A stretch of 64,000 bases of DNA, from NCBI GenBank assembly GCA_963676565.1, contig OY781089.1, forward strand, positions 128,001-192,000, given 5' to 3'. The notes beneath the pieces were generated by a model, which was given only the letters and a program-made list of their open reading frames with translations, was not told where the DNA came from and searched no databases. The position numbers were made by a program, and so were the translations under genes. Of this stretch, positions 31,823 through 45,004 are shown piece by piece (within the stretch, counting starts at the first letter, position 1; every line of letters starts with the position of its first letter). The stretch comes from Halarcobacter sp. (GTDB lineage Bacteria; Campylobacterota; Campylobacteria; Campylobacterales; Arcobacteraceae).

Positions 31823-32224
31823 CTATTCACGAGTATATTCATTTGCCATTGTTTCTAATTCTAGTACACGCTTTATGTTTTGTTCCATTGGACAAAAATA
31901 ATACATTGGTGAACCTACATAATTTCCCATCAATTTGCAATGGATATTTCTATATTTGAGCCATGCTATTTGTGAGTTTTCAAATTGCTTTGCATCATCT
32001 ATTGAACGCTTTGATATGTTTTTATAAATAATTTTATATAGTCTATTCATCTCTTTTTTTGCAAATGCAGATGTATTTTCACTGCACATAGCAACAACCG
32101 TATTATTTATTTGACCTTCTTCATGAATACAATCATTGTAATTTTTCTCATATTTATTTTTTGTTTCAGCAAATAAAATAAAAGGCATTAATGCAATAAA
32201 TAATAGTAAATTTGTGACCTTCAT
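31823..32224 (-). CDS. LprI/DUF1311 family secreted protein (last cassette)
   Basis: Signal peptide, C...MC...MNRLY, SQIAWLKYRNIHC; AAGGAG RBS. Confidence 0.8.
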   Translation of the reverse strand: MKVTNLLLFIALMPFILFAETKNKYEKNYNDCIHEEGQINNTVVAMCSENTSAFAKKEMNRLYKIIYKNISKRSIDDAKQFENSQIAWLKYRNIHCKLMGNYVGSPMYYFCPMEQNIKRVLELETMANEYTRE

Positions 32225-32243
32225 ATATTACTCCTTTGTATCA

Positions 32244-32295
32244 ATATAACGCCTACCTCAGCCGCTGAAGATCGGCTCAGAGTCTCTTGTTAGCC
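32244..32295 (-). other. attC site, GC-rich short type (52 bp)
   Basis: GGCTAAC-AAGAGACTCTGAGCCG-ATCTTCAG-CGGCTGAG-GTAGGC-GTTATAT. Confidence 0.75.
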
Positions 32296-32668
32296 ATTTT
32301 CTAGTTATTATAGGCAACCATGTAGCCCCTATAGCACACAGCTGAAAATAGGCTAACCGGTACGGGTGAGCCCAGCCACCCGAGTAGCCAACATCAAAAG
32401 CCAGCCACACAACAAATGTGGAACTTGAAGCCAAAGCCGCAATCAGCACCCTTTCTGGAAATCTCAGTACAGCAAAACCCTCTAATACCGCCAATATTCC
32501 GAACCACGCTGTAAAAAAGCCTAAGGTTAGCCCCCAGGAATACCCACCTCTGTATTCTCTACCTATAGCTTCCGCCACGAAGTGGCCGACTCCATATATC
32601 GCGGTCAGAAGAAGCACCCTGATTATTGGCCGTAACAAAAGCAGATAAACTATGCGCTTTGTCATCAC
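32258..32668 (-). CDS. GC-rich 4-TM hypothetical cassette protein
   Basis: Hydrophobic ORF; 33/60 and 30/60 GC in two hand-counted lines; reads into its attC. Confidence 0.7.
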
Positions 32669-32736
32669 GATTAACCTTTGAAACGCTTAGTTAATAAATC
32701 GGAAACTTTCATGTAAATCCTTCTTATAATTTTAGT

Positions 32737-32805
32737 GTATAATGTTTAAAATGAGCCGATAAATTTCCCTCAGGGTAATTTATTGGCTCCTCTGATTTGT
32801 TAGAC
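32737..32805 (-). other. attC site, 69-bp family (R' GTT changed to ATT)
   Basis: GTCTAAC-AAATC-AGAGGAGC-CAATAAATTACCC-TGA-GGGAAATTTATCG-GCTCATT-TTAAAC-ATTATAC. Confidence 0.88.
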
Positions 32806-32808
32806 GTT

Positions 32809-33693
32809 TTATAATTCAAATCTAAATTCTTCTGGATGTTCATCATTAGGATAGTACGCTTTTATTTTGTATACATTTGTTTTGATTACATTTTCATCAA
32901 TATTTATTTCTTTGTCTACCAATAATCCAAACAGCCATGGTCTTTCAAATTTTTCAATGTATTCAAATGAAATGAGCTTTCCTTCTTCCGTATCAACTTC
33001 ATTAATATTTATTATATTTGATATTTTAACTAATTCAGTTAGAAAAATTAATACACTTTCATCAATATATAAAGAAGACCCACCAATATCTTTTTTTGAG
33101 CCCATATCATCTAGAATATATGCTTTTGCTAAGGCTGTATTCATTTGAAGTTCTTTAAGATTACTTATTACAATTGGATTACCTGTTCCTTTTGCTATAT
33201 TAGAATAACCACCTTTAGGTCTTGTATAATTTAAAACGAAATCATCAATTCTTGCCTCACTAAAAGTATATTCAGCTTTTTCACCAAATGCAATTACAGT
33301 TCTTGCACCTGGCAAATTATTTGAAATCTCTGATTTCATAATAAATACATGAGACATAATAATATCTCTAAGCCATAGCTCAATACCATGGAGAATATTT
33401 ATAGCTTTATCCATAATATTGTTTTCAATGAAATATGTTTTGATAACTCCATCGTTTAACACAAACATATAACTATTTGATGGAGAAAAATGTCTACTAT
33501 GAATTTTGTAAAATTCATCTAATCTATTAGTGATTTTTAACCAATCTTTTTTAGATAATTTCCAATTTGTTTTTGTAAAATGAGAACCAAATCCTAATAA
33601 GTCAGACCATGCACAAAGATTTAAGGATATTTGAAAACCCTCTTTATTTTGCAGTTTATCTCCTAAAGGACTAGAATACTTATTACTATACAT
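32809..33693 (-). CDS. Hypothetical protein, divergent class III nucleotidyl cyclase-like
   Basis: AWSDLLGF, FVLNDGV, ARTVIAFG, ALAKAY motifs in cyclase order. Confidence 0.55.
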   Translation of the reverse strand: MYSNKYSSPLGDKLQNKEGFQISLNLCAWSDLLGFGSHFTKTNWKLSKKDWLKITNRLDEFYKIHSRHFSPSNSYMFVLNDGVIKTYFIENNIMDKAINILHGIELWLRDIIMSHVFIMKSEISNNLPGARTVIAFGEKAEYTFSEARIDDFVLNYTRPKGGYSNIAKGTGNPIVISNLKELQMNTALAKAYILDDMGSKKDIGGSSLYIDESVLIFLTELVKISNIININEVDTEEGKLISFEYIEKFERPWLFGLLVDKEINIDENVIKTNVYKIKAYYPNDEHPEEFRFEL

Positions 33694-33870
33694 TTATATA
33701 TCAATCTTTTTTCCACTTAACTTGAAGTAAACAAATCCAGCACTCACTAACGCTATTACAAAAATAATTCCTGTTTCTTCTTTTGCTGGGTTACCTACTA
33801 GACTTAAAAGTCCAATAAATAATCCAAAAAATATAACAATACCTATAGTTCGTGCAAAATTTTCTTTCAT
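33694..33870 (-). CDS. 58-aa two-TM protein (below the ORF track cutoff)
   Basis: GAAGGA RBS, MKENFARTIGIVIFFGLFIGLLSLVGNPAKEETGIIFVIALVSAGFVYFKLSGKKIDI, TAA directly followed by the next ATG. Confidence 0.75.
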   Translation of the reverse strand: MKENFARTIGIVIFFGLFIGLLSLVGNPAKEETGIIFVIALVSAGFVYFKLSGKKIDI

Positions 33871-33886
33871 TTTATTCCTTCATATG

Positions 33887-33921
33887 ACGTTATCGGGTCG
33901 CCGCAGGCGAGCCGATAACGT
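33887..33921. repeat. 35-bp GC-rich hairpin overlapping an attC R' box
   Basis: ACGTTATCGG-G-TCGCC-GCA-GGCGA-G-CCGATAACGT. Confidence 0.85.
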
Positions 33922-33981
33922 TTAAAATGAGCCGATGAATTGCCCACAGGGTAATTTATTGGCTCCACTGATTTGTTATGT
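33913..33981 (-). other. attC site, 69-bp family (both core triplets intact)
   Basis: ACATAAC-AAATC-AGTGGAGC-CAATAAATTACCC-TGT-GGGCAATTCATCG-GCTCATT-TTAAAC-GTTATCG; 8-nt L'' with an extra base versus 7-nt L'. Confidence 0.92.
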
Positions 33982-34755
33982 TTTTTTCTTATTTATAATT
34001 AAGTTATAAGCTTGTACTTTATAAAAGTCTAGCATTACTTCTTGCCCCTTTTTGTTTTTATCATTAATTTTCTTTAGTTTTGCAAGCTCATTCGCATTTT
34101 TACCAGTTAATTCAAAAGCTTTTAAATACATAGTTATATTATTAGGGTTCTCTATTCTAAAAGTATTCAAGCTTTTTTTATCTTTATTGTTAATTTTAAT
34201 GCCTACAAATACATGACCACCTTCTTCATTTCCATTTTCATCAATAAAAGACTTACGATGAAAAATATAAGTCTCATACCCAATATAACTCAACAGTGCA
34301 GCTGCAAGAATTGATTGATCTTCGCAATCTCCTAACTTTGTTTTGTAAGTTGCATTTATTGATTTTAAGATATCCTCATTTTTTTCATCTTCTTGGTATT
34401 TAACTTCATAAATCATAAAATCCAATACTTTTTTTAATTTATCCTTTTGAGACATATCGTTTTTAATTCCTATTTCAATTGCAATACTTTTTACATTTTG
34501 GATATTAGAATTTACATAATTTGCATATTCTTTCATTTCAATTTCAGAAAGAATATTTTCTATTTTATTTTTAGAATAATTTTGTAATCCATATTGATAA
34601 AGAATATTTTCTTGTTCTTGTATAGTTTTTGCTTTGTTTAATTTATTTTGAATTGATAAAAAACTATTTTGTTCTTGTATAGTTTCATTATCACCTAATA
34701 CATAAATTATAATTAGTAATAAAACTGCTATTGCTATTAATATGTTTTTTTTCAT
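33976..34755 (-). CDS. Transglutaminase-like (Cys-His) membrane-anchored cassette protein
   Basis: GDCEDQSILAAALL and GHVFVGI; stop TAA lies within the R'' box. Confidence 0.8.
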   Translation of the reverse strand: MKKNILIAIAVLLLIIIYVLGDNETIQEQNSFLSIQNKLNKAKTIQEQENILYQYGLQNYSKNKIENILSEIEMKEYANYVNSNIQNVKSIAIEIGIKNDMSQKDKLKKVLDFMIYEVKYQEDEKNEDILKSINATYKTKLGDCEDQSILAAALLSYIGYETYIFHRKSFIDENGNEEGGHVFVGIKINNKDKKSLNTFRIENPNNITMYLKAFELTGKNANELAKLKKINDKNKKGQEVMLDFYKVQAYNLIINKKKT

Positions 34756-34800
34756 TTTTAATCTTTCCTCTTAAAAAATAATTGAAACTGCAGACATTAA

Positions 34801-34869
34801 ACATAACGTTTAAAATGAGCCGATGAATTACCCACAGGCTAATTTATTGGCTCCACTGATTTATTATAA
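34801..34869 (-). other. attC site, 69-bp family (R'' AAC changed to AAT)
   Basis: TTATAAT-AAATC-AGTGGAGC-...-GCTCATT-TTAAAC-GTTATGT. Confidence 0.9.
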
Positions 34870-35156
34870 GTTACTGACTTGAAATGTTCTACTATAGGAA
34901 AAGGATCATAAAAATGATGAAGCAGTGTTTTCCATTCTTGATATTTTTCAGAACCTCTAAAACCTTCCGTATGGTCTTCTAATGTCTCCCAATTTACCAG
35001 TAAAATATATTTATTTGGTGTTTCTATGCATTTTTGTAATTGATGTGAAACATACCCTTTCATTTTTGAAATAATGGCTTGTGCTTTTTCAAATGCAATT
35101 TCAAAATCATTTTCTTGACCAATCTTTACATCTAAAACTGCTACTTCTAATATCAC
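34839..35156 (-). CDS. Antibiotic biosynthesis monooxygenase (ABM) family protein
   Basis: MILEVAVLDVK, LLVNWETLEDHTEGFRGS, LLHHFYDPFP. Confidence 0.85.
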   Translation of the reverse strand: MILEVAVLDVKIGQENDFEIAFEKAQAIISKMKGYVSHQLQKCIETPNKYILLVNWETLEDHTEGFRGSEKYQEWKTLLHHFYDPFPIVEHFKSVTYNKSVEPIN

Positions 35157-35173
35157 TTTATTTCCCCTTTGAT

Positions 35174-35192
35174 TTATAACTCTTTGTTAAAT
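35174..35192 (-). other. Collapsed attC (R''-5 bp-R')
   Basis: ATTTAAC-AAAGA-GTTATAA at the gene end; GTTATAA matches the end box of the next cassette. Confidence 0.65.
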
Positions 35193-35500
35193 AACTGATT
35201 GCTACCAATTACTTCATAGACTTTAACTTCTGTATCAGGTTTAATGCGAAATTTTTCGTCTTCTGGATAAAGAACAGCTTTATACAAATTATCACCTGTG
35301 TATCGTTTCATAATATCTAGTTCTTCCCAATGTGATACGAATGTAATTTCAATCTCACCATTTAACTCACGTTTTAGAACATGATACCCTATACACCCGT
35401 CAATATTTTGAGTATCTTTTATACCTGTTTCTGAAAGGTAATTAATAAATCCATTTGCTGTCTCTTTAGGGCAAACACATTTCCATTCTCGATGATACAT
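35174..35500 (-). CDS. ABM-like dimeric alpha-beta barrel protein
   Basis: R.W.., TGI...GC.G..VLKR, SHWE, AVLYPEDEKF; ATG 35500 with AAGGA RBS. Confidence 0.75.
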   Translation of the reverse strand: MYHREWKCVCPKETANGFINYLSETGIKDTQNIDGCIGYHVLKRELNGEIEITFVSHWEELDIMKRYTGDNLYKAVLYPEDEKFRIKPDTEVKVYEVIGSNQLFNKEL

Positions 35501-35520
35501 ACTATTCCTTTGCAATTTTT

Positions 35521-35587
35521 ATATAATATTTAAATACACCAATAAAGTGCCGCAGGTACTTTATTAGTGTGCTATGATTTGTTATGT
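35521..35587 (-). other. attC site, 67-bp variant (R' GTT changed to ATT)
   Basis: ACATAAC-AAATC-ATAGCACACTAATAAAGTACC-TGC-GGCACTTTATTGGTGTAT-TTAAAT-ATTATAT. Confidence 0.8.
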
Positions 35588-36303
35588 GCTTCATTTTCGT
35601 TTAAGTTTACTTTGATTATTTCTTCATTATCTTTTCTTTTAATTAATAAAGTTGCAATGGAAAAATTTTTAACACCTCTATACTCTTCAACATTTTTTTC
35701 GCCAAATATAAAATAACCTTCTTCGTCAAGTTTTTTTATTTGGTTATCAAATTCTAAGCCTATATTAATTTTATCTCGAATTTCTAAATCACTACTGATT
35801 TCACCATAATCAATAAATGTTTGTAATGTACTTCCAATATAGTCAGCTTCATCTTTTGAAATTATATTATCGTAATCGACCCTATATCCCATCACATCAG
35901 ATAAGATATTCATTAACTCTTTCCCAGATGAGATTCTTACTAAAAATTTTATTTCTTCTATATTTTTATTGCCATCAAGTTCTTTTTTTAAAGTCTTTTG
36001 TACCCAGTTTTCATGATTTTGTTTCATATATCTTAATATTTCTTCTGGAAAAGAATCTATTAAAGTATCAATTTCTTTGTGATGATTTCTACATAATAAA
36101 ATCAAGTTATCAAATGTATCATAATCATTTAAATTTGGCTTATGTCTTGGTCCTTTTGATTTGCTACTTATAATATGACATTCTTCACCAATATTTAGGT
36201 TACTATCTGTTTCTTGTTCTGTAATTAGTTCGATTTTACAGATAGCACATCTATTACCTGATTTTGCCCAAAGCATTTTTCTAGTTTTTTCTGATATTGC
36301 CAA
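35572..36303 (-). CDS. HNH endonuclease with unrecognised C-terminal domain (first cassette)
   Basis: LWAKSGNRCAIC, ECHII...GPRH, NLILLCRNHHKEID; TTG start at 36303 after AGGA. Confidence 0.85.
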   Translation of the reverse strand: MAISEKTRKMLWAKSGNRCAICKIELITEQETDSNLNIGEECHIISSKSKGPRHKPNLNDYDTFDNLILLCRNHHKEIDTLIDSFPEEILRYMKQNHENWVQKTLKKELDGNKNIEEIKFLVRISSGKELMNILSDVMGYRVDYDNIISKDEADYIGSTLQTFIDYGEISSDLEIRDKINIGLEFDNQIKKLDEEGYFIFGEKNVEEYRGVKNFSIATLLIKRKDNEEIIKVNLNENEAHNKS

Positions 36304-36334
36304 TCTACTAATTCCTATTTTATTTTTAAATCTC

Positions 36335-36353
36335 ACATAACTATCTATTGAAT
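36335..36353 (-). other. attI-like simple site at the head of the array
   Basis: ATTCAAT-AGATA-GTTATGT (7-5-7); GTTATGT is the exact complement of the first cassette's ACATAAC. Confidence 0.6.
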
Positions 36354-36357
36354 ACCC

Positions 36358-36397
36358 ATTATATAAATAAAGCACTTAAATCCACTTATTTATTATA
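36358..36397 (-). promoter_or_regulatory. Candidate cassette promoter(s)
   Basis: Two minus-strand TATAAT hexamers at 36358-36363 and 36392-36397. Confidence 0.4.
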
Positions 36398-36456
36398 TAT
36401 TCTTAAAAGAGCATATTTTAGGTATAGCTTCTAAAATGTTGGATTTTTAGAGAATC

Positions 36457-36577
36457 GAAAATTCATATTTTTATTAAAATCAAGGCAAAGAGAATTTTTC
36501 ATGAAGGAGTTTACTGTAGTAAATGACTGATTAAAGAATTTTATTTAACGAAGATTCTGATAAAAAGATGGATTTTC
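36457..36577. repeat. 120-bp imperfect palindromic (MITE/RPE-like) element
   Basis: GAAAATTCATATTTTTATTAAAATC pairs with GATTCTGATAAAAAGATGGATTTTC; apical TTTAC-TGTA-GTAAA. Confidence 0.7.
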
Positions 36578-37099
36578 CCTCATCATACATTTTAATATCT
36601 CATAAGTTTTACTAACATCATATGTAGCACTATGATAAGATTCTTGGTCAAAATCTATATTATAAAAAATACAAGTCTCATCTAGTTTTGGATTTTTTAT
36701 TCTCCCATTTTTATTTAAAGCTTTTACAATATGCTTATTCTCTTTCATAGTACAAATATGATTTTCAAAGGAAGCCAAGCCTTCGACTCTTGCAAGCTCA
36801 AAACTTATATTGTGAGCAACTAAAGTTTTTGCATCTTCACAAAATTTTACAAAGTCCTCATCCTCTTTAAAATATGAGGCATATTTTTCTTCACTTTTAT
36901 TTCTATGTTCAAGTATTAATTCAGGGGTTAATCTATGAACTTGAAAGGCGTAATAATTAACTGGATATCTTGAAAGATAATATCTATGAAATTTGTCTAC
37001 AACTTTTAACTCATTATTTTGTATTTGAACTTTAACTGCAGCTGCTTCTATAACGTCATGTGGGTTTAAAGTATTTGTTTCGAAGTCTAATATAATCAT
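36545..37099 (-). CDS. DEDDh 3'-5' exonuclease
   Basis: IILDFET, LVAHNISFE, HSATYDV; start reassigned to ATG 37099. Confidence 0.88.
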   Translation of the reverse strand: MIILDFETNTLNPHDVIEAAAVKVQIQNNELKVVDKFHRYYLSRYPVNYYAFQVHRLTPELILEHRNKSEEKYASYFKEDEDFVKFCEDAKTLVAHNISFELARVEGLASFENHICTMKENKHIVKALNKNGRIKNPKLDETCIFYNIDFDQESYHSATYDVSKTYEILKCMMRENPSFYQNLR

Positions 37100-37301
37100 A
37101 GTGCAATTATATTCAATAAAATGTAAATAATATGTAAGAAAATAAGCACTTTCCACAAATTTTTAAAGAGTTTTAGAATTATTCAAAAAAAAATGGATTT
37201 TTCCTTTCAATTTTATTTATTTTTTGATTTTTTTTCATAATACTTAGTTATAAAATGTGCCTGACTAGCATATATGGTTAAACAAAAAATAAAAAAGGAC
37301 A

Positions 37302-42765: not shown

Positions 42766-43767
42766 TTATTTCCATCCTGATTTATCAAATATTTTAACTG
42801 CATTAATATTATATTTTCCCATAGTATTTATTGAGATATTATCATCTTCAAACGTCCCCCATGAAGAAACCACATCATTTTTCTTAACACCCTTTGCAAC
42901 AGGATATTCAAAGTTCCCATTTGCAAATAAATCTTGTGCCTCAGGACTTAATAAAAACTCTATAAATTTAATAGCATTTTCTTTATTAGGAGAATATTTT
43001 GCAACTCCTGCACCACTTACGTTTATGTGTGTTCCACCATTCTCAAATTTAGGAAATATAATCTTTACTTTTTTAACTGCTTCACTTTCAGCAATATCTT
43101 TATTACCAATCATTTTACCAACATAATAAGTATTTGCAATAGCAATTTTTCCAATTCCATTTGCTACAGCTTTTACTTGATATCTATCATTTCCTCTAGG
43201 TCGTCTTGCCATATTCTTTACAACGCCTTTTGCCCATTTTAAAGCGTACTCTTCACCATGGTGAGCAATAACAGCGGCAAGCATTGATTGATTGTAAACA
43301 TGGTTTGATGATCTAACCATAATCATTTTTTTATACTCTGGTTTTATTAAATCTTCATAGGTTTTAATCTCAATATTACTATCAATTGGAACAATAAAGG
43401 CTCTTACTCTTTTTGTCAATGCAAACCATTTATTATCTTCATCCCTTAGATTTTCAGGAACAACTTCCATTAGATATTTTGATTCAATTGATTGAATTAA
43501 GCCTTTTGATTTTGCTTGATAAAGTCTTCCTGCATCAACAGTGATTAAAACATCTGCTGGTGACTTTTCACCTTCACTTTCTAATCTTTTAATTAAAGCA
43601 TTAGCATCTGCATTTACAACATTTACTTTAATACCTGTTTTTTCCTCAAACATTTTATATAATTGTTTATCTGTATCATAATGTCTGTGAGAATATACAT
43701 TTACTTCATTTGAAGCAAAAACAAAATTTGTAAAAATAAAAAAACTTAATAATATTTGTTTAATCAT
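42766..43767 (-). CDS. Fe3+ ABC substrate-binding protein, paralog 2 (FutA/FbpA)
   Basis: VNVYSHRHY, SPADVLITVDAG, YNQS, ANTYY, HINVSG. Confidence 0.92.
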   Translation of the reverse strand: MIKQILLSFFIFTNFVFASNEVNVYSHRHYDTDKQLYKMFEEKTGIKVNVVNADANALIKRLESEGEKSPADVLITVDAGRLYQAKSKGLIQSIESKYLMEVVPENLRDEDNKWFALTKRVRAFIVPIDSNIEIKTYEDLIKPEYKKMIMVRSSNHVYNQSMLAAVIAHHGEEYALKWAKGVVKNMARRPRGNDRYQVKAVANGIGKIAIANTYYVGKMIGNKDIAESEAVKKVKIIFPKFENGGTHINVSGAGVAKYSPNKENAIKFIEFLLSPEAQDLFANGNFEYPVAKGVKKNDVVSSWGTFEDDNISINTMGKYNINAVKIFDKSGWK

Positions 43768-43825
43768 ATTTGTACCTTTTTAAAATATAGATTATATCAT
43801 TTATGAAGTAAAACATTTCTTATAG

Positions 43826-43850
43826 TAATAATTGTTATCAAAATGATAAT
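43826..43850. promoter_or_regulatory. Fur box-like site
   Basis: TAATAAT-T-GTTATCA then AATGATAAT, upstream of an iron-binding protein gene. Confidence 0.65.
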
Positions 43851-43857
43851 AAGAGAT

Positions 43858-43890
43858 AAAAAAAGGGAGTAGCAAAAACTATTCCCTTTC
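43858..43890 (-). terminator. Intrinsic terminator after paralog 1
   Basis: AAAGGGAGTAG / CTATTCCCTTT stem with A-run. Confidence 0.7.
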
Positions 43891-43914
43891 TTCTTTGTTA
43901 AATATTAGATTGTA

Positions 43915-44922
43915 TTATTTCCAACCAGCTTTATCAAACACTTTTACTGCTGCTGCATTGTTTTTCCCAAGCTCATTAATTGAAATTGTGTCATCTTCAA
44001 ATTCACCCCAAGATTCAACTATAGGATTTTTCTTTACACCATCAATAACTGGATATTCAAAGTTCCCTCCAGCAAATAATTCTTGTGCATCTTTGCTTGC
44101 TAAAAACTCAATAAATTTAATTGCATTTTCTTTATTAGGAGAATATTTTGCAACCCCTGCACCACTTACATTTATATGTGTTCCACCATTTTCAAATTTA
44201 GGAAAGAAAATCTTAACTTTTTTTACAGCTTTAGCTTGTGATTCATCTTTATTATCAACCATTTTACCAATATAATAAGTGTTTGCAATTGCAATTTCAC
44301 CAATACCATTTGCAATAGCTTTTACTTGATATCTGTCATTACCTTTTGGAGCCATTGCCATATTTGCAACTACACCTTTAGCCCAGTTTAAAGCATATTC
44401 TTCACCATGGTGAGCAATCATACCTGCTAATAATGATTGGTTATATGTATTATTTGAAGATCTAACCATGATTTTACCCTTAAATTTTGGGTCTGCTAAA
44501 TCTTCATAAGTAGATAATTCTTTTTCTATTCCTGATCCTAATTTATAAACTGTAACTCTTGCTCTTTTAGTTAAACCAAACCATTGGTTATCTTTATCTC
44601 TTAATTTTTGAGGAATTGAATTTATTAATTTTTCAGACTCAATTGCTTGAAAAAGACCTTTTTCTTTTGCTGTATATAATCTTGCAGCATCTACAGTGAT
44701 TAAAACATCAGCTGGTGATTTTTCACCTTCAGATTCAAGTCTTTGAACTAAAGCAGAACCTTTTGCTTTTACAACATTTACTTTTATACCTGTTTTTTCT
44801 TCAAACATTTTAAACAATATTTTATCTGTGTCATAATGTCTTGTTGAGTAAATATTAACCTCATTTGCAGCATAAATTGAACTTGTCAATAATAATGCAC
44901 CTAAAAATAATTTTTTTAGCAT
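43915..44922 (-). CDS. Fe3+ ABC substrate-binding protein, paralog 1 (FutA/FbpA)
   Basis: Same motifs as paralog 2; ATG 44922 after AAGGA. Confidence 0.92.
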   Translation of the reverse strand: MLKKLFLGALLLTSSIYAANEVNIYSTRHYDTDKILFKMFEEKTGIKVNVVKAKGSALVQRLESEGEKSPADVLITVDAARLYTAKEKGLFQAIESEKLINSIPQKLRDKDNQWFGLTKRARVTVYKLGSGIEKELSTYEDLADPKFKGKIMVRSSNNTYNQSLLAGMIAHHGEEYALNWAKGVVANMAMAPKGNDRYQVKAIANGIGEIAIANTYYIGKMVDNKDESQAKAVKKVKIFFPKFENGGTHINVSGAGVAKYSPNKENAIKFIEFLASKDAQELFAGGNFEYPVIDGVKKNPIVESWGEFEDDTISINELGKNNAAAVKVFDKAGWK

Positions 44923-44936
44923 ATCTATTTCCTTAA

Positions 44937-45004
44937 TGATAATTATTATTGAAATAATACACATCTTATACTTAATTTTTTATTAATAATAATAATGACT
45001 ATCA
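44937..45004. promoter_or_regulatory. Two Fur box-like sites
   Basis: TGATAAT-T-ATTATTG (44937-44951) and TAATAAT-G-ACTATCA (44990-45004). Confidence 0.65.

What the first reader, a model, noticed from the sequence alone, without database searches (positions are those of the whole stretch)
32737..34869. Lineage-specific 69-bp attC family in three near-identical copies
Seen: sites at 32737-32805, 33913-33981 and 34801-34869 share AAATCAG(T/A)GGAGCCAATAAATTA.CCTG.GGG.AATT.ATCGGCTCATTTTAAAC, and the 67-bp site at 35521-35587 keeps the AAATCA and TTTAAA flanks around a different stem. Established: homogeneous attC families mark sedentary chromosomal integrons (for example VCR in Vibrio cholerae). 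Inference: an AT-rich host lineage has its own cassette pool, and more copies may lie elsewhere in this genome.
Basis: partly seen in the sequence, partly recalled or inferred. Interest (0 to 1): 0.75.

Follow-up and report, generated by a model that had tools for sequence, protein, structure and literature searches.

The report
Integron attC sites, array without integrase
The three 69-base repeats are genuine integron cassette recombination sites (attC) of a type shared by many Campylobacterales, sitting in a small five-cassette array that keeps its attI insertion site but has no integrase gene nearby: an ordinary kind of element in a group where it has been little described.

Summary
Three 69-nt imperfect palindromes sit at the stated coordinates, and a fourth site has the same flanks around a compensated stem. 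None is expected by chance.

They are attC sites. A genome-contig scan found the same family in at least 60 species-level assemblies, 52 of them labelled Campylobacterota. It has conserved ..TAAC/GTTA.. ends and a covarying stem that folds better on the bottom strand. Each site lies at the 3' end of a different ORF, and sites within a locus are co-oriented.

In three genomes the arrays lie next to a divergent integron integrase (TIGR02249, 406-415 bits scored for two). Five more loci hold intI pseudogenes or remnants.

The window also holds an attI-like site (36338-36420). Its homology to intI-proximal regions elsewhere stops at the GTT crossover. A fifth, GC-rich cassette has a different, unverified attC-like site.

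No integrase is encoded in the 64 kb. Three of the four AT-rich sites carry a substitution in the invariant AAC/GTT triplet, against 8 of 125 elsewhere.

So this is a small intI-less array (CALIN-like), probably a decaying or trans-served integron remnant. The family is order-wide rather than private to this host. New member of a known kind; moderate interest.

The parts
36338..36420 (-). attI-like site. It contains a TATAAT (36363-36358), and its homology to other loci ends at GTTA (G 36341 | TT 36340-36339).
   Evidence: 88% identity over 83 nt to L071. Shorter matches to L012, L068 (two places), L072 and L054 all end at window 36337-36339. Downstream sequences are unrelated and start with RBS+ATG. 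The same motif lies 248-294 nt from the start of intact intI in L068 and L062.
35527..36340 (-). Cassette 1 (814 bp). ORF 35572-36273 (233 aa) has an N-terminal HNH nuclease domain.
   Evidence: Pfam HNH_2. PADLOC HNH-effector models match over residues 1-98, E 7e-27. The 267-aa ORF listed starts upstream of the crossover, so its first 34 codons are probably not coding (inference).
35521..35587 (-). attC site 4 (67 nt): same flanks, different stem. R'' is ACATAAC; R' is ATTATAT (A in place of G).
   Evidence: CM 53.3 bits on the minus strand vs 20.7 on plus. Hairpin of -8.9/-9.0 kcal/mol. Top 5' arm is 3 nt longer than the 3' arm.
34807..35526 (-). Cassette 2 (720 bp): two ABM-domain ORFs (35174-35515, 113 aa; 34839-35156, 105 aa).
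   Evidence: Pfam ABM, E 6e-5 and 4.5e-13.
34801..34869 (-). attC copy 3. R'' is TTATAAT (T in place of C); R' is GTTATGT.
   Evidence: CM 81.9 bits on minus vs 36.3 on plus.
33919..34806 (-). Cassette 3 (888 bp): ORF 33976-34755 (259 aa), transglutaminase-like with an N-terminal hydrophobic segment. Its stop codon is the TAA inside R''.
   Evidence: Pfam Transglut_core, E 1.8e-6. Sequence.
33913..33981 (-). attC copy 2, the only window site with both triplets intact (ACATAAC ... GTTATCG).
   Evidence: CM 90.8 bits on minus vs 43.6 on plus. 98.55% identical over 69 nt to L101.
33887..33919 (.). GC-rich perfect hairpin (GTTATCGG...CCGATAAC) that starts at the R' box of copy 2. Unexplained.
   Evidence: -15.3 kcal/mol, z -5.3. 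Analogous hairpins with other stems follow R' in L018, L056, L005 and L048.
32743..33918 (-). Cassette 4 (1176 bp): ORFs 33694-33870 (58 aa, hydrophobic) and 32809-33693 (294 aa, no family).
   Evidence: No Pfam, NCBIfam or PADLOC match.
32737..32805 (-). attC copy 1. R'' is GTCTAAC; R' is ATTATAC (A in place of G).
   Evidence: CM 84.3 bits on minus vs 42.4 on plus.
32250..32742 (-). Cassette 5 (493 bp, 45% GC against 27.6% for the window): ORF 32258-32668 (136 aa, hydrophobic, no family).
   Evidence: GC content. Three homologues besides itself among 5.8 billion proteins. No plasmid match.
32244..32295 (-). Probable attC of another, GC-rich type (52 nt; GGCTAAC ... GTTATAT). Not verified.
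   Evidence: Terminal boxes read. It bounds the GC-rich segment. The fold is weak (z -0.4 and -1.5), and model R1 does not detect it.
31823..32224 (-). LprI-domain ORF (133 aa), co-oriented, starting 25 nt after the last R'. No attC follows it, so its membership in the array is uncertain.
   Evidence: Pfam LprI, E 1.3e-8. No CM hit between 31785 and 31823.

Best explanation
The repeats are attC recombination sites of integron gene cassettes. They belong to a sequence-conserved attC family used by a clade of integrons found across Campylobacterales.

The window holds an attI-like site followed, on the minus strand, by five cassettes. Four end in this AT-rich attC class. Three of those are the 69-mer and one is a stem variant. 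The fifth cassette ends in a GC-rich attC-like site.

Inferred mechanism, following the established integron model: when the DNA is single-stranded, the bottom strand (the window plus strand) folds into a hairpin. The terminal boxes pair (..TAAC with GTTA..), and a 17-bp stem forms, stabilised by G.T wobbles. An integron integrase cleaves in the bottom-strand AAC of R' and exchanges that strand with attI or with another attC. This excises or inserts whole cassettes in one orientation, downstream of a promoter-like TATAAT inside attI.

No integrase gene lies in this 64-kb window, so the array is CALIN-like. It is most simply read as the remnant of a chromosomal integron whose intI was lost or replaced. 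Three of its four AT-rich sites are point-mutated in the invariant triplet.

Shown here: the sequences, the fold asymmetry, the covariation, the genomic contexts, and the integrase and attI association in relatives. Inferred: recombination itself, promoter use, and loss of activity.
For: Family and ends:
- 134 unique sites in 84 loci from 60 assemblies.
- In the 129-site alignment the R'' AAC is intact in 124 sites. In R' the G is kept in 125 of 129, the first T in 127 and the last T in all 129.

Structure:
- 88.2% of cells are paired.
- 12 of 22 pairs change on both sides, and 0 of 500 shuffles reach this.
- Sliding one arm by 1-3 columns drops pairing to 30-43%.

Strand asymmetry:
- Three stem positions carry A.C on the coding strand, which is G.T on the other strand, in 48, 45 and 81 of 129 sites.
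- At most 2 sites show the reverse.
- The bottom strand is the more stable one in 120 of 129 sites.

Extra bases: where arm lengths differ, the extra bases lie on the L'' arm in 38 sites against 4.

Context:
- 97 of 101 sites follow a same-strand ORF of at least 60 aa.
- 40 of those 97 ORFs stop at the TAA inside R''.
- The 97 ORFs form 96 clusters.
- All sites in a locus are co-oriented.

Integrase:
- TIGR02249 gives 415 and 406 bits (cut-off 265) for divergent genes beside arrays in L018 and L062.
- There is an intact homologue in L068.
- There is a pseudogene in L047, and N-terminal remnants in L071, L054, L072 and L019.

attI: window 36338-36420 is homologous to the intI-proximal region, and the homology ends at GTTA.
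Against: - No integrase in the window. Pfam was run on 54 ORFs, and tblastn with two IntI proteins found nothing at E<=1e-3.
- The 69-mer's main stem is symmetric. 87 of 129 sites have equal arms, so canonical extrahelical bases are not evident in it.
- Only copy 2 has both triplets intact.
- IntegronFinder's attC model could not be run.
- The covariance model used here was built from the family itself.
- The GC-rich fifth site is weakly supported.
- No recombination was observed.
- In the 28 attI-like modules elsewhere that have a co-oriented attC within 4 kb downstream and at least 1400 nt of upstream sequence, 23 show no detectable intI remnant. Simple repeated intI loss may therefore not be the whole story.
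Confidence: 0.85

Rival explanations
1. Same identity (attC cassettes), but the array is not a fossil. It is a live satellite array whose cassettes are excised and reinserted in trans by an IntI encoded elsewhere in the same 3.34-Mb genome or brought in by a mobile element.
For: The window covers only 64 kb of a contig of 3,340,668 bp. The Marinarcus genome has one intI but attI-like + attC modules at three further places (L021, L043 and the second module in L068). Core triplets are intact in 117 of 125 sites elsewhere, most of them without an intI within the fetched flanks. Copy 2 is fully intact. Cury et al. 2016 discuss trans-mobilisation of CALIN cassettes (PMC4889954, passages read).
Against: Three of the 4 AT-rich sites here carry a substitution in the AAC/GTT triplet, against 8 of 125 elsewhere (Fisher p 0.0018, post hoc, small numbers). 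Only about 83 nt of attI homology are retained, against 250-330 nt in many other modules. No IntI was seen in the window.
Confidence: 0.3
2. The repeats are not integron sites. They are a REP/MITE-like intergenic palindrome or a reiterated transcription terminator that happens to sit after genes.
For: They are hairpins placed just after stop codons and followed by ATTTT on the coding strand. Many loci hold only one or two copies without an integrase.
Against: The consensus terminator scan does not flag them; the tail has only 4 T. There is no Rfam match. The better-folding strand is the non-coding one, which is the wrong way round for an RNA terminator. The conserved AAC/GTT ends, the constant orientation, the association with TIGR02249 integrases and attI, and the 96 different upstream genes are what attC sites predict, and a REP or MITE does not.
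Confidence: 0.04

Closest known systems
VCR (Vibrio cholerae repeats), the homogeneous attC family of the Vibrio sedentary chromosomal integron
   Same: A sequence-conserved attC type reused behind many unrelated, mostly unknown-function ORFs, all co-oriented, with RYYYAAC/GTTRRRY-type ends and bottom-strand folding. The comparison with VCR rests on recalled knowledge and on the introductory passages of PMC5027507.
   Different: The site here is 69 nt with a 3-nt loop and a symmetric 17-bp stem. The family is spread over at least four families of Campylobacterales rather than one genus. Arrays are short: 1-14 sites per 20-kb locus. Most of them, including the window's, have no adjacent integrase.
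Taxon-specific attC types modelled by Ghaly et al. 2021 (PMC8352920)
   Same: The same phenomenon: attC sequence and structure conserved within a taxon, which allows a taxon-specific covariance model.
   Different: Their 11 models are six gammaproteobacterial orders plus Acidobacteria, Cyanobacteria, Deltaproteobacteria, Planctomycetes and Spirochaetes. 'Epsilon' and 'Campylobacter' occur nowhere in the main text. Those terms and three further genus names (Arcobacter, Sulfurimonas, Sulfurovum) occur in none of the 5 supplementary files searched; one further file is a picture PDF and could not be read.
[quoted passage not shown] 2016 (PMC4889954)
   Same: At least two attC sites, no intI nearby, mostly unknown cassettes, small size (passages read).
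   Different: Here an attI-like site is still present at the head of the array, and relatives show intI pseudogenes or remnants at the same place. The origin by integrase loss is therefore traceable. Cury et al. found recognisable intI pseudogenes near only 15 of 279 CALIN.
IntegronFinder reports for vent Campylobacterota (PMC10295459, Table 1)
   Same: CALIN in Sulfurovum sp. NBC37-1, and In0 plus CALIN in Sulfurimonas autotrophica, are listed. Integron elements in this phylum have therefore been seen by routine tools.
   Different: That paper describes neither the attC family nor attI. I did not check whether those elements carry this 69-mer.

Membership tests
integron attC site | Terminal inverse core sites: R'' RYYYAAC and R' GTTRRRY, with invariant AAC/GTT | tested here: met
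   Family: AAC intact in 124 of 129 sites. In R', G is kept in 125 of 129, the first T in 127 of 129 and the last T in 129 of 129. Window: copy 2 is intact. Copy 1 and site 4 have ATT for GTT, and copy 3 has AAT for AAC. The consensus definition is taken from PMC5027507.
integron attC site | Imperfect palindrome that folds as single-stranded DNA, with the bottom strand being the favoured or recombinogenic form | tested here: met
   88.2% of cells paired. 12 pairs show compensatory change, with 0 of 500 shuffles reaching this. The bottom strand is more stable in 120 of 129 sites (mean -13.4 vs -11.0 kcal/mol), through G.T where the top strand has A.C.
integron attC site | Extrahelical bases on the L'' arm (opposite the AAC arm on the bottom strand) and an unpaired central spacer | tested here: inconclusive
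   A 9-nt/9-nt mostly unpaired region lies between the R box and the stem. 87 of 129 sites, including the three copies, have equal arms. Where arms differ, the L'' arm is longer in 38 sites against 4; site 4 is +3.
integron attC site | Lies at the 3' end of a cassette ORF, with sites co-oriented in arrays and variable cargo | tested here: met
   97 of 101 sites. 96 clusters among the 97 ORFs. Sites are co-oriented in every locus mapped. In the window all ORFs from 31823 to 36273 are on the minus strand.
integron attC site | Recombined by an integron integrase | not testable with these tools
   Needs a recombination assay.
complete integron / sedentary chromosomal integron | intI (tyrosine recombinase with the IntI-specific domain) adjacent and divergent to attI and the array | tested here: not met
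   Window: no Phage_integrase hit among 54 ORFs scanned, and no tblastn hit with two IntI proteins. Relatives: met in L018 and L062 (TIGR02249, 415 and 406 bits) and in L068 (intact reading frame, 84% identical to the L062 protein by tblastn).
complete integron / sedentary chromosomal integron | attI site at the head of the array | tested here: met
   Window 36338-36420. The homology ends at the GTT crossover, and the same motif sits next to intI in L062 and L068. IntI binding was not tested.
complete integron / sedentary chromosomal integron | Large array (>19 attC) or presence in all genomes of the species (criteria of Cury et al. 2016) | tested here: not met
   4-5 sites in the window. Species-wide presence could not be tested because no conspecific genome was found.
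CALIN | At least two attC sites within 4 kb of each other and no intI nearby | tested here: met
   Four sites at spacings of 720-1176 nt and no intI within 27 kb on either side. The formal definition uses IntegronFinder's own model, which was not run.
intrinsic terminator | GC-rich stem followed by a T-run on the transcribed strand | tested here: not met
   Not flagged by the scan. The tail ATTTTAAA has 4 T. The stem folds worse on the coding strand.

The most novel reading that the evidence does not exclude
In Campylobacterales the integron may operate as a dispersed system. Many short modules of the form 'attI (with its own TATAAT) + 1-5 cassettes' are scattered around the chromosome without an integrase. 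Several attI subtypes can occur in one genome; Marinarcus has four modules and one intI. These modules would be kept functional, with cores intact in 117 of 125 sites, by a single IntI acting in trans or by IntI arriving on incoming DNA. The nearly invariant 69-mer would then be the common currency of a cassette pool shared across families. The window's array would be one such satellite rather than a dead integron.
Probability: 0.2. Interest if true: 0.6.

Novelty: new member of a known kind. Interest (0 to 1): 0.4.

Why it matters
It adds Campylobacterales to the taxa with their own conserved attC type. This order includes Arcobacter-like organisms of water, sediment and animals. The family consensus, a covariance model and a candidate attI are now available for it, so cassettes in metagenomes can be assigned to this pool.

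The recurring pattern of attI plus a few cassettes without an integrase bears on an open question raised by Cury et al. 2016: where CALIN come from, and whether they remain mobilisable.

For the window itself the result is ordinary. It is a small array of unknown-function cassettes. One encodes an HNH nuclease and one is a GC-rich import. No resistance gene was recognised.

Tried and rejected
- Chance: rejected.
- Further copies in the window: none. The CM with filters off found only the four sites.
- Integrase in the window: none.
- Synteny or shared cassettes with the fetched loci: none. tblastn with 16 window proteins gave only weak miaB and AraC matches, and blastn matched only the repeats and attI.
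- Terminator reading: not supported.
- Known RNA family: none.
- GC-rich cassette in plasmids: no match.
- Defence-system assignment of the cassettes: only the HNH domain of cassette 1 and the DEDDh exonuclease outside the array match PADLOC models. NCBIfam gave nothing above cut-off.
- One NCBIfam call failed because the reference I gave for the L068 integrase included an upstream stop. The translation shows the gene itself is open.
- Literature: six searches found no description of an attC family or attI of Campylobacterota. The library holds open-access papers and preprints only.
Full report
**1. The observation**

The window is AT-rich (27.6% GC). At 32737-32805, 33913-33981 and 34801-34869 lie three copies of a 69-nt imperfect palindrome.
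- A 55-nt pattern with five free positions matches only there, with none in 100 shuffles.
- Each half-motif is likewise unique to the three places.
- Pairwise identity is 84-90% over 69 nt and 91-96% over the 55-nt core.
- The site at 35521-35587 shares the flanks and has a different but self-complementary stem.

**2. Surroundings in the window**

From 31823 to 36273 every credible ORF is on the minus strand. Each repeat lies directly 3' of one. The ORFs are unrelated to one another:
- an HNH nuclease;
- two ABM-domain proteins;
- a transglutaminase-like protein;
- a 58-aa and a 294-aa protein with no family;
- a hydrophobic 136-aa protein in a segment of 45% GC;
- an LprI-domain protein.

The block is wedged between core genes. 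miaB, nusA and cysS lie on one side. A DEDDh exonuclease, rraA and an ion channel lie on the other.

No tyrosine recombinase is encoded anywhere in the 64 kb.
- 54 ORFs were scanned with Pfam.
- Four listed ORFs of 150 aa or more were left out: two alternative forms of scanned ORFs and two ORFs overlapping scanned genes.
- tblastn with two integron integrases found nothing at E<=1e-3.

**3. Relatives**

One scan of genome contigs used a stem pattern derived from the repeat.
- Full flanks were fetched for 80 loci only.
- An nhmmer profile of the three copies hit 84 of the 121 loci. The other 37 are chance pattern matches in unrelated phyla.
- The hits give 134 unique sites in 60 assemblies.
- 52 assemblies are labelled Campylobacterota (Arcobacteraceae, Sulfurimonadaceae, Sulfurovaceae, Sulfurospirillaceae and others). 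Eight are MAGs with other or uninformative labels.
- The best outside copy is 98.55% identical to copy 2 over 69 nt.
- No locus is syntenic with the window, so its own genome was not retrieved.

**4. Anatomy of the family**

In the orientation of the upstream genes (the window minus strand) the consensus is:

xxYTAAC-AAATCAGWG-GAGCCAATAAATTACCC-TGC-GGGCAATTYATYGGCTC-ATTTTAAAC-GTTAKxx.

- The ends fit the attC inverse core sites as defined in PMC5027507. AAC is kept in 124 of 129 sites. In R' the G is kept in 125, the first T in 127 and the last T in all 129.
- The stem is supported by covariation. 88.2% of cells are paired, and 12 of 22 pairs change on both sides. None of 500 shuffles reaches any measure. 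Pairing falls to 30-43% when one arm is slid.
- Three stem positions are A.C on the coding strand, hence G.T on the other strand, in 48, 45 and 81 of 129 sites. The reverse is almost never seen.
- The non-coding (bottom) strand is the more stable one in 120 of 129 sites. This is the asymmetry expected of a site that acts as a folded bottom strand.
- Sister sub-families in the same arrays have quite different stems but the same ends. Where their arms differ in length, the extra bases lie on the L'' arm in 38 sites against 4.
- In the 69-mer itself the arms are equal. Canonical extrahelical bases are therefore not evident, and this defining feature stays inconclusive.

**5. Context elsewhere**

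134 unique sites were found. 101 of them have at least 700 nt of sequence on both sides and were evaluated.
- 97 have a same-strand ORF of at least 60 aa ending within -40 to +150 nt of R''.
- In 40 of those 97 the stop codon is the TAA inside R''.
- 80 are followed by a same-strand ORF start.
- The 97 upstream ORFs form 96 clusters, so the cargo is variable and the site constant.
- All sites in a locus point the same way.

**6. Integrase and attI**

Integrase genes beside the arrays:
- L018 (a Sulfurimonas MAG) and L062 (Arcobacter iocasae) each have a divergent gene at the head of the array. It scores 415 and 406 bits on TIGR02249, 'integron integrase' (cut-off 265).
- L068 (a Marinarcus MAG) has an intact homologue.
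- L047 has a pseudogene.
- L071, L054, L072 and L019 keep only 25-35 N-terminal codons.

The window's attI-like site:
- Window 36338-36420, just upstream of the first cassette, is 88% identical over 83 nt to the stretch beside the L071 remnant.
- It matches shorter stretches in L012, L068, L072 and L054.
- In all of them homology ends at GTTA. Unrelated sequence with an RBS and a start codon follows.

A 28-nt motif from this region was searched with up to 6 mismatches.
- It occurs at 36 non-redundant places.
- All are in the orientation of the attC sites.
- 31 have a co-oriented attC within 4 kb downstream.
- It lies 248-294 nt from the start of the intact intI genes.

I read it as attI, with a conserved TATAAT 17 nt before the crossover as the likely cassette promoter (inference).

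28 of those modules hold at least 1400 nt of upstream sequence.
- Two have an intact intI, one a pseudogene and two a remnant.
- The other 23 show nothing detectable.
- Homology to the intI-attI spacer often runs to about the intI start and then stops.
- One genome (Marinarcus) has four modules of differing subtype and one intI.

**7. The window's array**

Cassette boundaries follow from the G|TT points. The cassettes are 814, 720, 888, 1176 and 493 bp long (coordinates are listed under parts).
- Only copy 2 has both triplets intact. Copy 1 and site 4 read ATT for GTT, and copy 3 reads AAT for AAC.
- That is 3 of 4 sites, against 8 of 125 elsewhere (Fisher p 0.0018; post hoc and small numbers).
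- Only about 83 nt of attI homology remain.
- The position where intI would lie is occupied by an exonuclease gene on the other strand.

Together this suggests an integron remnant that is losing its recombination competence. An IntI elsewhere in the 3.34-Mb contig cannot be excluded.

The fifth site (32244-32295) bounds the 45%-GC cassette and has TAAC/GTTA ends. It folds weakly and is not recognised by my model.

**8. Rivals**

- A terminator or REP/MITE reading fails on strand asymmetry, conserved cores, integrase/attI linkage and the terminator scan.
- The live-satellite reading remains open.

**9. Known or new**

- Taxon-typical attC families, CALIN and integrase loss are established (PMC8352920 and PMC4889954; passages read).
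- IntegronFinder has already flagged CALIN/In0 in a Sulfurovum and a Sulfurimonas (PMC10295459, Table 1).
- The eleven published taxon models include no Campylobacterota.
- Six literature searches found no description of this family or its attI.

It is a new member of a known kind. The somewhat unusual point is the abundance of integrase-less attI-plus-cassette modules.

Noticed in passing
window 33887-33919; also L018 near 9449, L056 near 6741/5872/4792, L005 near 13725, L048 near 9041: A GC-rich, nearly perfect hairpin begins exactly at the R' box (GTTxxxx...xxxxAAC). It therefore mirrors the core site in inverted order. The stems differ between loci, and it stands out against AT-rich DNA. 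It could be an attC-targeted insertion, an empty or minimal cassette, or a repair by-product. It is unexplained.
   Followed up: partly
L021, L043, L036/L068 (one Marinarcus genome); L031 (four motif copies): Several attI-like motifs of different subtypes occur in one genome or even within one array, with only one intI seen. In many modules homology to the intI-attI spacer stops near the intI start codon.
   Followed up: partly
window 32250-32742: This cassette has 45% GC in a 27.6% GC genome. It encodes a hydrophobic 136-aa ORFan with only three other homologues among 5.8 billion proteins, and its attC-like site is of a different type. It looks like an import from a GC-richer cassette pool.
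   Followed up: partly
window 35572-36273: The cassette protein's first ~100 residues match HNH nuclease domains of CBASS/SAVED-type defence effectors in PADLOC. The C-terminal ~130 residues have no match. It could be a stand-alone defence nuclease.
   Followed up: no
window 36545-37156: A DEDDh (RNase T/DnaQ-like) exonuclease gene lies where intI would be expected, on the cassette strand. PADLOC's 'DEDDh, CAS-associated' model matches at E 5e-22. Whether it belongs to the element is unknown.
   Followed up: no
loci generally: In 40 of 97 cassettes the ORF's stop codon is the TAA inside the R'' box (..TAAC). Site and gene end are therefore fused.
   Followed up: yes
window 42766-44964: Two adjacent paralogous solute-binding protein genes (333 and 349 aa) lie next to an ABC permease and ATPase. 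This is a tandem duplication in an iron-type uptake locus.
   Followed up: no
L011, L041, L091, L100 and other short MAG contigs: The 69-mer also occurs on contigs binned as Muiribacteriota, Thiodiazotropha, Flavobacteriaceae and Fusobacteriaceae. These could be mis-binned Campylobacterota contigs or real cross-phylum cassettes.
   Followed up: no
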